Shown: one piece after another, positions 14,713-16,607 of the stretch | How positions within the stretch are numbered: position 1 is the first letter of the stretch | Layout: every line of letters starts with the position of its first letter | DNA from: Candidatus Hermodarchaeota archaeon | GTDB lineage: Archaea; Asgardarchaeota; Lokiarchaeia; Sigyniarchaeales; SOKP01 | Assembly (NCBI GenBank): GCA_048885535.1 | Contig: JBHLLO010000027.1 | Span: forward strand, 1-19,586 | Direction: 5' to 3' | Length of the DNA: 19,586 bases | The notes under the pieces: generated by a model | Seen by the model: the letters and a program-made list of their open reading frames with translations, nothing else | Database searches by the model: none | What the model was told of the DNA's origin: nothing | Made by a program: the position numbers and the translations under genes

Positions 14713-15356
14713 CTAAAAGCCTTCAATCGACTTTCCTGAAAGCTTTTTATAATGATTTAATACTGCTTGCCGAGCAGCATATACAAATGCCCGTTTTACA
14801 TTAACACCTTGTATAGCAATTGTTTCGTATATTAAACAATGACTAAGCTTGGCAGTATCTAGTACTTGTCTAATTTTCGATATTTCCACAATTTCCTCTA
14901 AGTCTCTCTTATTTGCGAGTAAAACTATTGGTACTTCTGGAGGATCAAATTCTTTTGGTGGAATAAGTTTGTCTCCATAAAATTTTAGCAATTCTTTAAG
15001 CGACCAAATGTTCTCTTGCCATTGATCTATGAGAGAATCCCAAGTGAATATTACGGCATCGGTACCCTTTAATACAGTTTGCCTTTGAAATTTATGACGT
15101 CTCTGACCCGCAACGGTGTAAACTTGAAACACAACATTAGATACACGAGCTACAACACGATCGAAAAATAGTGTACGTCCAGTGGGGTCTTGTATTTGTT
15201 GCATATCACCACTAGCTAATCCTTCCTTGTTATAAACCCATTCTAATGCTGTGGTTTTACCTCCTAAGCTGGGACCGTAAAAGCAGATTTTCTTTCTTAA
15301 TCCGAAACGAATTAAACTTTAAAGACCAAGGTCCCATCTCCTCTACGTGAAGGCAC
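14713..15356 (-). CDS. mglA: MglA-like small GTPase, predicted two-exon gene: join(15356..15319, 15289..14713), 204 aa
   Basis: The track ORF (ATG 15204) lacks a P-loop, but its frame continues upstream through KICFYGPSLGGKTT (G1) to a TAA with no ATG/GTG/TTG start. MglA hallmarks RTLFFD, YTVAGQ and NKRD are present. An upstream GTG frame (MPSRRGDGTLVFK), preceded by SD-like GAGTGG, joins in frame if 29 nt are removed. Confidence 0.85.
15290..15318 (-). other. Candidate 29-nt bulge-helix-bulge/loop (BHB/BHL) mRNA intron
   Basis: Minus strand reads GGU-CUUU-AA^A-G-UUUAAUUCG-uuu-CGGAUUAAG-AAAG-AA^A-AUC. This gives a 4-bp helix CUUU/AAAG, a 3-nt AAA bulge, outer pairs GGU/AUC and a 9-bp inner stem. 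Cutting after the second nucleotide of each bulge gives in-frame GUC UUU AAA AUC UGC. Confidence 0.7.
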
Positions 15357-15539: not shown

Positions 15540-16607
15540 ATGGCAATAGATGTATATGAGAAATTAAGAGAATTCCTTGATCAATTTCCAATAGGATTTC
15601 GTAAAACGAAATCAGGAGTTGAGATTAAAATATTAAAGCGATTATTTACTGAAGAAGAAGCTGAACTAGCTACATTTTTAACCATACGACCAGAACTGGC
15701 CCAAACCATAGCAAGAAGAGCTGGAAAGAATTTGCAGCAAATAGAAAAAAAGCTTGAATCGATGGCGAAAAAAGGGCTCATTTTTCGGACACGGAGAGAA
15801 AATCAGATTCTTTATAATGCTATTCCGTTCATGATTGGTTTGTATGAATATTCTATTAAAAAAATTGATAAAGAATTAGCCAAGCTTTTTAAGGAGTATT
15901 ACAATACAGCTGGGCTTGAAGAGATGGGAGCAAGTAATGTCCCCGGTTTTAAAGTGATTCCCTTACAAGAGACTATTCAACCTCAAACTACACTTCTTCC
16001 TTATCAAATGCTCCAAGAATCAATAAAAAATGCAAGGGTTATCGCAGTAACTGACTGTATCTGCAGAAAAGAGGCTCAGCTCCTAGGAGAAGGTTGTAAT
16101 AATCCGATAGAGAGTTGTTTGAGCTTTGGAGTTGCTGCTGAATATTATATAGAGAATGGGATTGGGCGAAAGATAACCCCAGAGGAAGCAATCCAAATAA
16201 TCAAAAAAGCTGATAAGGCTGGTTTAGTTCATGCTGGAGCTAATTCAAAACACCTATCAAACATCTGTAATTGTTGCCCTTGTTGTTGCGGTTCAATGAA
16301 GGGTATGACTCAATATGGTCAAGATAAGCATAAATTTATGAATGCTATATTCGAATCAACAATTGAGAAAGAATTATGTGTTACTTGTGGAAGTTGTATA
16401 GAAAGATGTCCTGTAAAAGCTATATCCCTAGAGGATATTGCTATTGTTAATAGAGATTTATGTCTTGGATGTGGCTTATGTGCTACTGTTTGTCCAGAAC
16501 AAGCAATTATTTTGAAACTGAGGGGTGATCGTGAAGAACCATTTGACCGAGTGTTAGAAATGGGGAAGGCTATGATTGAAGGAAAACGAAAAACTGCAAT
16601 AAAATAA
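15540..16607 (+). CDS. 4Fe-4S binding protein with N-terminal HTH-like region and Cys-rich cluster
   Basis: Contains CICR, CNCCPCCC and two ferredoxin motifs (CVTCGSCIERCP, CLGCGLCATVCP). The N-terminal LFTEEEAEL...LESMAKKGLI is typical of this family in anaerobes. Confidence 0.88.
   Translation: MAIDVYEKLREFLDQFPIGFRKTKSGVEIKILKRLFTEEEAELATFLTIRPELAQTIARRAGKNLQQIEKKLESMAKKGLIFRTRRENQILYNAIPFMIGLYEYSIKKIDKELAKLFKEYYNTAGLEEMGASNVPGFKVIPLQETIQPQTTLLPYQMLQESIKNARVIAVTDCICRKEAQLLGEGCNNPIESCLSFGVAAEYYIENGIGRKITPEEAIQIIKKADKAGLVHAGANSKHLSNICNCCPCCCGSMKGMTQYGQDKHKFMNAIFESTIEKELCVTCGSCIERCPVKAISLEDIAIVNRDLCLGCGLCATVCPEQAIILKLRGDREEPFDRVLEMGKAMIEGKRKTAIK

What the first reader, a model, noticed from the sequence alone, without database searches (positions are those of the whole stretch)
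15286..15356. Candidate tRNA-endonuclease-type (BHB/BHL) mRNA intron splitting an MglA-like small GTPase gene
Seen: on the minus strand, GTG at 15356 opens MPSRRGDGTLVFKV and stops at TAA 15314-15312. The GTPase body (ICFYGPSLGGKTT...RTLFFD...TVAGQ...NKRD) is in another frame with no start codon ahead of its P-loop. The intervening sequence is a compact hairpin (UUUAAUUCG-uuu-CGGAUUAAG). It is closed by a 4-bp helix CUUU(15324-15321)/AAAG(15295-15292), each strand followed by AAA, and by outer pairs GGU/AUC. The 3' bulge is a canonical 3 nt, while the 5' one has an extra G (relaxed, BHL-like). Established: archaeal EndA cuts after the second bulge nucleotide and RtcB ligates, and protein-gene introns of this type are known mainly from crenarchaeal cbf5. 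Applying that rule removes 15318-15290 (29 nt) and yields LVFKICFYGPSLGGKTT, a normal beta1/P-loop in a 204-aa protein. Inference: this is a splicing-dependent, possibly regulated switch for a signalling GTPase in a probable Asgard archaeon, conceptually like Ire1/RtcB splicing of XBP1/HAC1. The unspliced mRNA would give only a 14-aa peptide.
Basis: partly seen in the sequence, partly recalled or inferred. Interest (0 to 1): 0.95.

Follow-up and report, generated by a model that had tools for sequence, protein, structure and literature searches.

The report
Mini-introns splitting an Asgard GTPase gene
A 29-base insert that breaks a conserved small GTPase gene of an Asgard archaeon has the shape that the tRNA-splicing enzyme cuts, and related genomes carry some thirty similar mini-inserts at fourteen sites in the same gene, so this looks like a prokaryotic protein gene with several true introns.

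Summary
On the minus strand a GTG at 15356 opens 14 codons that stop at 15314-15312. The GTPase body runs in another frame.

Orthologues are 204-aa proteins whose start reads straight through the join. That is exactly the product obtained by removing 15318-15290.

The same gene carries 29 further inserts of 28-45 nt in 15 other genomes of the family, at 14 sites in all and up to four per gene.

[quoted passage not shown] Shuffled inserts give 6.8%.
- **Selection:** exons stay under strong purifying selection, and exon and intron bases co-vary in the central helix.
- **Enzymes:** the genome has two EndA paralogues and one RtcB.
- **DNA support:** contigs from three studies hold the insert.
- **Gene specificity:** one neighbouring gene and 150 listed Ras-family genes show no such insert.

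No RNA data exist, so splicing itself is inferred. The proposed "regulated switch" has no support. This is a new variant of a known kind; only crenarchaeal cbf5 has confirmed splicing.

The parts
15319..15356 (-). Exon 1. GTG start at 15356-15354, 12 full codons and the first two bases (AA) of the Lys-13 codon.
   Evidence: The peptide is identical to residues 1-13 of orthologues P0003-P0008. Orthologues L013 and L014 start with the same GTG.
15290..15318 (-). The 29-nt BHB-type mini-intron. It consists of 1 bulge base, an extra G, a 9-bp hairpin with a UUU loop, the 4-nt strand AAAG of the central helix, and 2 bulge bases. It carries the in-frame TAA at 15314-15312.
   Evidence: It is the single 29-nt insertion relative to the uninterrupted orthologue. 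Central helix 4/4 and outer helix 3 bp. Core hairpin -4.5 kcal/mol, z -2.5. Present without gaps in contigs of runs X4, X5 and X6. The border is ambiguous over 4 positions.
14713..15289 (-). Exon 2. Third base of the Lys-13 codon, then the GTPase body from the P-loop to the stop codon at 14715-14713.
   Evidence: P0001. It is 96-97% identical to orthologues from query residue 9 onward. Pfam Arf and Ras. Best solved-structure match MglA.
15321..15324 (-). 5' strand (CUUU, exon) of the 4-bp central helix H.
   Evidence: Pairs with 15295-15292 (AAAG) in the canonical register, 4 of 4. The same exon bases form H with different introns in G005 and G077.
15292..15295 (-). 3' strand (AAAG, intron) of the central helix H.
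15317..15320 (-). 5' bulge, AAA plus an extra G (4 nt, relaxed). The predicted cut lies between 15319 and 15318.
   Evidence: Read. With a 4-nt 5' bulge the inner helix is 9 bp. In the strict 3-nt register it is 0 bp.
15289..15291 (-). 3' bulge AAA (canonical 3 nt). The predicted cut lies between 15290 and 15289.
15296..15316 (-). Inner helix h': hairpin 15316-15308 paired with 15304-15296, loop 15307-15305.
15286..15288 (-). 3' strand (AUC, exon 2) of the outer helix h. It pairs with GGU 15327-15325 in exon 1.
   Evidence: pairs T-A, G-T, G-C.

Best explanation
The 29 nt at 15318-15290 (minus strand) are an archaeal bulge-helix-bulge intron inside the coding region of an MglA-like small GTPase gene.

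Proposed mechanism: the pre-mRNA folds so that exon bases CUUU pair with intron bases AAAG. An exon-exon outer helix and an intron hairpin flank this central helix. The host splicing endonuclease (two EndA paralogues, which suggests the heterotetrameric broad-specificity type) cuts in the two bulges. RtcB joins the exons and probably circularises the intron. The joined message encodes the 204-aa GTPase that relatives encode without interruption. Unspliced RNA yields only a 14-aa peptide.

What is shown: the insertion, its exact restoration of the conserved protein, BHB geometry here and in 29 related inserts, covariation, purifying selection, the presence of the enzymes, and presence of the insert in independent DNA assemblies.

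What is inferred: cleavage and ligation in the cell.

The intron is most likely a tolerated insertion that constitutive splicing keeps harmless, not a regulatory device.
For: 1. **Exact restoration.** Orthologues P0003-P0008 (204 aa) read straight across the join. The DNA alignment shows one 29-nt insertion.
2. **Recurrence.** My protein-to-DNA spliced alignment found 30 inserts (28-33 nt, one of 45) in 16 genomes at 14 sites. It found none in the conserved part (aa < 190) of 19 control loci, L013-L031.
3. **Geometry.** With peptide-preserving borders only, the canonical register gives a central helix of 4/4 in 22 of 30 inserts and 3/4 in 8 of 30. Shuffled inserts give 4/4 in 6.8% (mean 2.0 of 30, maximum 6, over 300 replicates). 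The intron core folds as a hairpin with z < -1.64 in 25 of 30.
4. **Same site, other genomes.** At the window's own site, G005 has a different 29-nt insert with fully canonical 3-nt bulges (H 4/4, h 3, h' 5). G077 has a 30-nt insert.
5. **Covariation.** Double-sided changes between a synonymous exon base and its intron partner occur at sites aa41, 68, 75 and 102.
6. **Selection.** All 16 genes are open when spliced in silico. Against uninterrupted genes pN is 0.02-0.14 and pS 0.64-0.93. G100 and G075 share an 83%-identical intron, with pN 0.026 and pS 0.366.
7. **Effect of not splicing.** 27 of 30 inserts stop translation if left in.
8. **Enzymes.** Two EndA matches (99.7 and 70.2 bits) and one RtcB (560.9 bits) are in the genome. 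Passages of PMC5829648 state that Asgard archaea have the (alpha-beta)2 EndA with the L1 loop.
9. **Independent DNA.** Contigs of X4 (704 nt, 0 differences), X5 (341 nt) and X6 (331 nt), from three studies, cover the insert without gaps.
10. **Gene specificity.** The 355-aa neighbour shows no insertion-type break in the same 135 genomes. All 150 listed Ras-family matches, out of 337 found in the five most interrupted genomes, are uninterrupted.
11. **Intron-rich background.** ARAGORN calls introns in 23 of 34 tRNA genes of this genome.
Against: - There is no RNA evidence of any kind.
- The window's 5' bulge has 4 nt. In the strict 3-nt register its inner helix is 0 bp, so cleavage by this EndA is assumed, not known.
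- Folding the local 76 nt is not better than shuffles (z -0.78).
- The window's intron has no sequence relative. Identity to the same-site introns of G005 and G077 is 0.59 and 0.60, within the shuffle range (95th percentile 0.62). Purifying selection after this particular insertion therefore cannot be shown.
- 8 of 30 related inserts have one mismatch in the central helix. Only 9 of 30 meet the full strict motif (H 4/4, h >= 2 and h' >= 2).
- A genome-wide scan of G000 for BHB motifs that would join two open frames gave no excess over shifted-cut controls (585 against 590-680). No second spliced gene was found in this genome.
Confidence: 0.85

Rival explanations
1. Inactivating insertion. In this genome the gene is a young pseudogene, and the BHB-like shape is a by-product of inserting a hairpin-forming sequence.
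For: No RNA data. The 5' bulge is non-canonical. The intron sequence is unique to this genome. Selection after the insertion cannot be measured for G000 alone.
Against: The insert has the 4/4 central helix in the exact register that restores the frame. Exon 1 keeps all 13 residues. The same allele occurs in DNA contigs of three studies. Fifteen other genomes carry such inserts while staying under purifying selection, including pairs that inherited a shared intron. Other genes in the same genomes are not broken in this way.
Confidence: 0.07
2. Translational bypass (ribosome hopping of the phage T4 gene 60 type). The peptidyl-tRNA-Lys would leave AAA 15320-15318 and land on AAA 15291-15289, skipping the hairpin.
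For: Matched AAA codons exist at both borders and a hairpin lies between them. A stop codon follows two codons after the take-off site.
Against: Only 4 of 30 related inserts have the >= 3-nt border repeat that hopping needs. All 30 fit the BHB register at 3/4 or 4/4. Exon-intron covariation in the central helix has no role in hopping.
Confidence: 0.03
3. A shorter protein is made from a non-standard start just after the insert, as in the database gene call P0002 (191 aa). The upstream 14 codons would be a leftover.
For: P0002 is such a call, seen on 2 contigs.
Against: That product would lack the first beta strand, which all 204-aa orthologues keep. It needs a non-ATG/GTG/TTG start. Exon 1 is intact, in frame from the same GTG as in L013 and L014, and differs from them only at synonymous bases.
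Confidence: 0.03
4. Assembly or sequencing artefact, or programmed -1 frameshifting.
For: The window is a metagenome-assembled contig. The two frames overlap.
Against: Contigs from three studies carry the insert with no gaps. The window in which the two frames are both open is only 4 nt (15318-15315), and no slippery heptamer lies in the zero frame. A frameshift would add about 9 residues that no orthologue has.
Confidence: 0.01

Closest known systems
BHB intron in the cbf5 (pseudouridine synthase) pre-mRNA of Desulfurococcales and Sulfolobales (Watanabe 2002 and Yoshinari 2006, seen only as references; Yokobori 2009, PMC2738675: search-listing abstract and found passages)
   Same: A short intron inside an archaeal protein-coding region. 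It has a bulge-helix-bulge motif built from exon and intron bases. It is removed by the tRNA splicing endonuclease of the hetero-oligomeric type. It is present in some species and absent in relatives.
   Different: It occurs in another gene (an MglA-like GTPase) and another lineage (Asgard). There are 14 sites instead of one. There are up to four introns per gene. Sizes are uniform at about 30 nt. Same-site introns have unrelated sequences. Splicing is not yet shown here, whereas cbf5 splicing was shown experimentally (per PMC2738675's listing abstract and found passages; the passages also say splicing had been confirmed for no gene other than cbf5 at that date).
Non-canonical and multiple tRNA introns of Asgard archaea (PMC11291895, passages; bioRxiv 10.64898/2026.10.13.758758, passages)
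   Same: The same recognition motif and enzymes. Many independent gains. Relaxed motifs in a minority. This genome is also rich in tRNA introns: 23 of 34 ARAGORN calls.
   Different: Those papers report tRNA genes only, in the passages I read. Here the host is an mRNA, so the reading frame and translation depend on removal.
Ire1/RtcB splicing of XBP1 and HAC1 mRNA in eukaryotes (recalled, not read)
   Same: Spliceosome-independent removal of a small frame-shifting intron from an mRNA. Ligation is by RtcB in metazoa.
   Different: The endonuclease is different (Ire1, which recognises stem-loops). That splicing is a conserved, stress-regulated switch. Here no conservation of the intron and no sign of regulation was found.
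MglA polarity GTPase of bacteria (PDB 5ymx, 6h17, 6hjh, 3t12)
   Same: It is the best solved-structure match over residues 12-198, E 8e-22 to 6e-21. P-loop, G3 and NKRD motifs are present.
   Different: Identity is low. Pfam places the protein only weakly in Arf and Ras. No MglB partner was looked for. The function in Asgard archaea is unknown.

Membership tests
Archaeal BHB intron (EndA/RtcB-spliced) | A 4-bp central helix between the two cut sites, in the register that places each cut after the second bulge base | tested here: met
   Window: CUUU/AAAG, 4 of 4. Across the family: 22 of 30 at 4/4 and 8 of 30 at 3/4, against 6.8% at 4/4 for shuffled inserts.
Archaeal BHB intron (EndA/RtcB-spliced) | Two 3-nt bulges on opposite strands | tested here: inconclusive
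   In the window the 3' bulge is 3 nt (AAA) and the 5' bulge is 4 nt (AAAG), so the motif is relaxed. The same-site intron of G005 is fully canonical.
Archaeal BHB intron (EndA/RtcB-spliced) | Flanking helices h (exon-exon) and h' (within the intron) | tested here: met
   In the window h is 3 bp. h' is 9 bp once the extra G is left unpaired.
Archaeal BHB intron (EndA/RtcB-spliced) | Removal restores a functional product | tested here: met
   The in-silico product equals the orthologue N-terminus. All 16 interrupted genes are open after in-silico removal.
Archaeal BHB intron (EndA/RtcB-spliced) | The host encodes the splicing endonuclease and the RtcB ligase | tested here: met
   Two PF01974 matches and one PF01139 match, all above cut-off. 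Subunit type and the L1 loop were not examined.
Archaeal BHB intron (EndA/RtcB-spliced) | Excision and exon ligation observed in RNA | not testable with these tools
   No RNA run is listed for this stretch. The runs laid were DNA contigs.
MglA-like small GTPase | Ras-superfamily G domain with a P-loop, a G3 motif and an NKxD motif | tested here: met
   All three motifs are in P0001. Pfam Arf 35.8 bits and Ras 34.5 bits, both above cut-off.
MglA-like small GTPase | Closer to MglA than to other small GTPases | tested here: met
   PDB search: four MglA sequences at E 8e-22 to 6e-21, next best Rab7 at 1e-7. That Thr in place of Asp in G3 is an MglA hallmark is recalled, not tested.
MglA-like small GTPase | A cognate MglB (Roadblock/LC7) GAP partner | not tested
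   The neighbouring ORFs were only listed.
Translational bypass (T4 gene 60 type) | Matched take-off and landing codons at the two borders | tested here: not met
   Met in the window (AAA/AAA), but only 4 of 30 related inserts have a >= 3-nt border repeat.
Programmed -1 ribosomal frameshift | A slippery heptamer in the zero frame inside the frame overlap | tested here: not met
   The overlap of open frames is 4 nt (15318-15315) and has no X XXY YYZ in frame.
Group I or group II self-splicing intron, or any Rfam family | A match to a curated RNA family | tested here: not met
   No Rfam match at gathering score anywhere in the window. The insert is only 29 nt.

The most novel reading that the evidence does not exclude
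In one family of Asgard archaea, this MglA-like GTPase gene is a hot spot where spliceosome-independent mini-introns keep arriving: 14 sites, up to four per gene, with unrelated sequences at the same site. Its mRNA would then be a regular substrate of the tRNA-splicing machinery. The boldest version has two parts. First, the machinery also puts the introns in, through cutting of BHB-like folds in the message, RtcB ligation of free introns, and copying back into DNA. Second, the cell uses the splicing step to tie production of a polarity GTPase to EndA/RtcB activity. That would be a living example of how introns can colonise protein genes before a spliceosome exists, in the closest prokaryotic relatives of eukaryotes.
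Probability: 0.2. Interest if true: 0.95.

Novelty: new variant of a known kind. Interest (0 to 1): 0.85.

Why it matters
Archaeal protein genes with introns have been close to a curiosity. Passages of PMC2738675 say that splicing had been confirmed only for cbf5. My seven searches of the held library found Asgard reports on tRNA introns only.

A protein gene with up to four introns, at sites that differ between species, in Asgard archaea bears directly on how introns can spread in coding sequence without a spliceosome.

It also gives a concrete, cheap test system: a transcript of about 80 nt, two EndA subunits and RtcB.

There is a practical point too. Gene callers truncate or split this gene (P0002, 191 aa). 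Asgard gene catalogues therefore under-count or mis-model such genes. Contig breaks at intron sites may come from intron presence/absence variation within populations.

Tried and rejected
- **RNA evidence.** The look-up of sequencing runs listed no RNA holder. Only DNA contigs could be laid.
- **Intron-less DNA form.** No joint skipping 15290-15318 appeared in the four runs. Contigs cannot show absence. A loose end at 15318 in X4 belongs to an uninterrupted relative, not to this strain.
- **Genome-wide search for other spliced genes in G000.**
  - A strict BHB scan (218,995 motif candidates) with an open-frame-joining filter gave 585 hits, against 680, 590 and 648 with the 3' cut shifted by +1, -1 and +2.
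  - With stricter limits it gave 15 against 15, 15 and 15. There is no excess.
  - This scan does not even catch the window's own relaxed intron. Its hits are mostly gene junctions.
  - The best-looking hit (C8:13378-13408) is the junction of two ordinary adjacent genes with their own start codon. I read them from their sequences as the two subunits of a 2-oxoacid:ferredoxin oxidoreductase, with no family search.
  - The method has low power, so this is not evidence that other genes lack introns.
- **Mobile repeat.** The intron with flanks has no second copy in G000. Only chance matches of 12-22 nt were found.
- **Common origin of the introns.**
  - Mean identity is 0.55 for same-site pairs, 0.51 for different-site pairs and 0.50 for shuffles.
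  - Only a few same-site pairs stand out: G100/G075 0.83, G012/G077 0.73, G005/G012 0.71, G064/G069 0.70.
  - TTTC (16 of 30) and TCGA (13 of 30) are enriched over shuffles (maxima 13 and 8). I cannot tell shared descent from a shared loop preference.
- **Whole-region fold.** It is not significant.
- **Other tools.** Rfam and ARAGORN found nothing in the window.
- **G060.** Its copy starts inside the P-loop and no exon 1 was found within 3.7 kb upstream. This is unresolved.
- **Contig-end copies.** The copies in G131, G080, G117, G114 and G105 could not be scored by the spliced alignment.
- **Spliced-alignment artefacts.** "Introns" at aa >= 193 in 11 loci (L022, L025, L027, L030, L033, L038, L039, L041, L051; also L054 at aa190) come from the variable C-terminus, and I dropped them. 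The three calls in L042 and the one in L048 were also dropped, as unresolved or at a contig end.
- **Nonsynonymous outliers.** The pN of 0.28-0.30 for G064 and G069 is an artefact of ungapped comparison with a one-codon length difference. The gapped comparison gives 0.054 between these two.
Full report
**What is in the window**

The window is a whole 19,586-base contig (C27) of a metagenome-assembled genome of 3.09 Mb in 112 contigs, 91.6% complete.

On the minus strand a GTG at 15356 opens 14 codons that end at TAA 15314-15312. A small GTPase body runs from 15318 to the stop at 14715-14713 in the -1/+2 frame. It has no usual start codon before its P-loop.

Between the two lie a 9-bp hairpin, a possible 4-bp helix (CUUU 15324-15321 with AAAG 15295-15292), an AAA after each strand of that helix, and three outer pairs.

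The local fold alone is not better than chance: z = -0.78 for 76 nt. This one sequence cannot settle the matter.

**The comparative test**

The body finds hundreds of proteins from Asgard metagenome bins. Source names include Promethearchaeota, Lokiarchaeota, Heimdallarchaeota and others. Nearly all are 204 aa long.

Their N-termini read the exon 1 peptide and the P-loop strand as one continuous sequence. The DNA of two close relatives shows the same GTG start and no interruption.

Aligned to an uninterrupted orthologue, the window has one insertion of 29 nt at CDS position 36-38 and nothing else. Removing 15318-15290 therefore gives precisely the conserved protein. Because of the A run, four neighbouring cuts give the same result.

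**The window's intron is one of many**

In the first 40 relatives, three genomes of the same genus showed the orthologue in pieces.

I searched all 135 genomes held for the family with an uninterrupted orthologue. I fetched the 20 places that looked interrupted or cut, plus three from the first search.

My own protein-to-DNA spliced alignment gave these results:
- It found no insert in the conserved part (aa < 190) of 19 control loci.
- It found 30 inserts in 16 genomes: G000, G005, G012, G019, G133 and G139 in the window's genus, and G057, G064, G069, G075, G077, G079, G093, G100, G126 and G150 in four other genera.
- The lengths are 28 (1), 29 (4), 30 (15), 31 (7), 32 (1), 33 (1) and 45 (1).
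- The inserts sit at 14 sites: after or within codons 9, 13, 20, 23, 35, 41, 45, 53, 60, 68, 70, 75, 102 and 105.
- G012 and G069 have four each.

A 31st insert, like that of G079, is visible by eye in a partial second copy at a contig end in G105.

By my hand count's listing, about 103 genomes have an orthologue of at least 80% identity. About one in six of these is interrupted.

None of the orthologues in the three other families of the order was interrupted. This rests, with five of them also checked by spliced alignment.

**Do the inserts have the BHB shape?**

I applied the canonical rule. Each cut falls after the second base of a 3-nt bulge. Four exon bases upstream of the 5' bulge pair with four intron bases upstream of the 3' bulge. 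I allowed only borders that leave the encoded peptide unchanged.

- The central helix is 4 of 4 in 22 inserts and 3 of 4 in the other 8. With the insert shuffled, 4 of 4 occurs in 6.8% of trials (mean 2.0 of 30, never more than 6 in 300 replicates).
- The full strict motif (also at least 2 bp in both flanking helices) is met by 9 of 30. Twenty of 30 have 4/4 plus at least one flanking helix of 2 bp or more.
- The intron cores fold as hairpins, usually starting at the second intron base. In 25 of 30 the z-score is below -1.64.
- The last two exon bases are AA in 19 of 30. The first base of the next exon is A in 17.

At the window's own site, G005 has a 29-nt insert of unrelated sequence with fully canonical 3-nt bulges. 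G077 has a 30-nt one. The window's version differs by one extra unpaired G on the 5' side.

**Covariation and selection**

At sites shared by several genomes, a synonymous change in the exon strand of the central helix is matched by a change in the intron strand:
- site 41: T-A to C-G
- site 68: C-G and T-A
- site 75: G-C and C-G
- site 102: T-A to C-G

After in-silico removal of the inserts, all 16 genes are open over codons 1-190. Nonsynonymous differences to uninterrupted orthologues are 0.02-0.14 per site, while synonymous sites are near saturation at 0.64-0.93. Two higher values are alignment artefacts; see Tried and rejected.

G100 and G075 share an 83%-identical intron at site 41 and so inherited it. 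They differ at 0.366 of synonymous sites but only 0.026 of nonsynonymous sites. The gene therefore stayed under selection while carrying the intron.

If left in, 27 of 30 inserts stop translation. These are not decaying genes.

**Machinery and background**

The genome encodes two proteins with the tRNA-intron endonuclease catalytic domain and one RtcB.

Two paralogues fit the heterotetrameric enzyme. Passages of PMC5829648 ascribe that enzyme to Asgard archaea, together with the loop that gives broad substrate range. Passages of the 2026 preprint report two paralogues in 44 of 60 Asgard genomes. I did not examine the loop here.

ARAGORN finds 34 tRNA genes in the genome and calls an intron in 23 of them.

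**Not an artefact, and gene-specific**

No RNA run is listed for this stretch. DNA contigs from three studies cover the insert without gaps: 704 nt with no difference, 341 nt with two, and 331 nt with one.

As controls for general assembly noise or decay:
- The 355-aa neighbouring gene, searched in the same 135 genomes, shows full-length uninterrupted matches. The exceptions are three rows with a single in-frame stop. One of these has no extra length; the other two are partial matches whose length I did not assess.
- In the five genomes with the most inserts, all 150 listed Ras-family matches (of 337 found) are full-length without stops.

Among the genes examined, the inserts are therefore particular to this one. 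That is one other gene family plus the Ras paralogues, which is a small sample.

A crude scan of G000 for other frame-joining BHB motifs found no excess over controls. Its power is low.

**What the protein is**

Pfam gives weak Arf and Ras matches. Among solved structures, four MglA sequences match at E 8e-22 to 6e-21 over nearly the whole length, far ahead of Rab7 at 1e-7. "MglA-like small GTPase" is a fair name. Its role in these archaea is unknown.

**Rivals**

- **Young pseudogene in G000.** This cannot be excluded for this one genome, because its intron has no sequence relative. The precise BHB register, the intact exon 1, the spread of the allele over three studies, and the behaviour of the other 15 genomes all argue against it.
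- **Ribosome hopping.** It is formally possible here (AAA at both borders), but only 4 of 30 inserts have such a repeat.
- **Frameshifting.** It lacks a slippery site, and it would add residues that no orthologue has.
- **Downstream start.** A non-standard start after the insert, as in gene call P0002, would drop a conserved strand.

**Regulation**

Most species lack any intron. Sites and numbers vary. Same-site introns are mostly unrelated in sequence: mean identity is 0.55 against 0.50 for shuffles.

The simplest reading is constitutive removal of tolerated inserts. Why this gene collects them is unexplained.

**Novelty**

In the held library I found BHB introns of archaeal mRNAs described only for crenarchaeal cbf5, with others merely predicted. 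This rests on PMC2738675's listing abstract and found passages, and on the reference lists of PMC5829648 and PMC12397907.

Asgard reports concern tRNA introns (PMC11291895 and the 2026 preprint, passages). Searches combining Asgard, intron, mRNA, RtcB, MglA, BHB and protein-coding terms found nothing on this. Subscription journals and supplements were not searched.

I rate it a new variant of a known kind, of high interest. The one missing piece is RNA evidence.

Noticed in passing
L048 (G131:C81, contig end at 12702) and L052 (G105:C1:1-650): G131's contig begins 3 nt before the codon-102 intron site and reads straight across it without an intron. G105 has one uninterrupted copy (C27) and a second partial copy at a contig end that carries a 33-nt insert at codon 102, like that of G079. 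Assembly breaks at intron sites may reflect intron presence/absence variants within a population.
   Followed up: partly
L042 / L059 (G060:C95:1-4500): The G060 orthologue starts at an ATG inside the P-loop (matches residues 21-203). No exon 1 was found within 3.7 kb upstream. It may be a truncated copy, or exon 1 may lie elsewhere.
   Followed up: partly
the 30 introns in L001, L032-L041 and L043-L047: TTTC occurs in 16 of 30 introns and TCGA in 13 of 30, mostly at the hairpin tip. Shuffle means are 5.7 and 2.7, with maxima 13 and 8. Loops are typically 5 nt and U-rich. This may be shared origin or a loop preference.
   Followed up: partly
window 15336-15330 and 15278-15272 (minus strand): A 7-bp helix between exon 1 codons (Gly-Thr) and the exon 2 P-loop codons (Gly-Pro) encloses the whole motif in the minimum-energy fold. 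The two close uninterrupted orthologues use other synonymous codons there and lack it. I did not test it for significance.
   Followed up: no
G000 whole genome (/data/genome.fa): ARAGORN finds only 34 tRNA genes, 23 of them with a predicted intron. The low count suggests that further tRNA genes are hidden by non-canonical introns.
   Followed up: no
P0002 (database gene call for this locus): A public gene call models the gene as 191 aa starting at the codon after the intron, and it is seen on 2 contigs (longest 25,799 nt). Annotation pipelines truncate this gene.
   Followed up: no
G075:C64:38949-40004, G064:C114:27851-28669 and G047:C75:12905-13756: Orthologues of the 355-aa neighbouring gene (window 15540-16607, Cys-rich) carry a single in-frame TAG, TAG and TGA. 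The G075 match has no extra length. They may be recoding, errors or decay; I did not examine them.
   Followed up: no
G000:C8:12200-14800 (L058): Two overlapping adjacent genes, read from their sequences as 2-oxoacid:ferredoxin oxidoreductase alpha (422 aa) and beta (327 aa) with no family search, mimic a BHB-joined split gene in my scan. It is a false positive that shows the weakness of motif-plus-ORF scans.
   Followed up: yes
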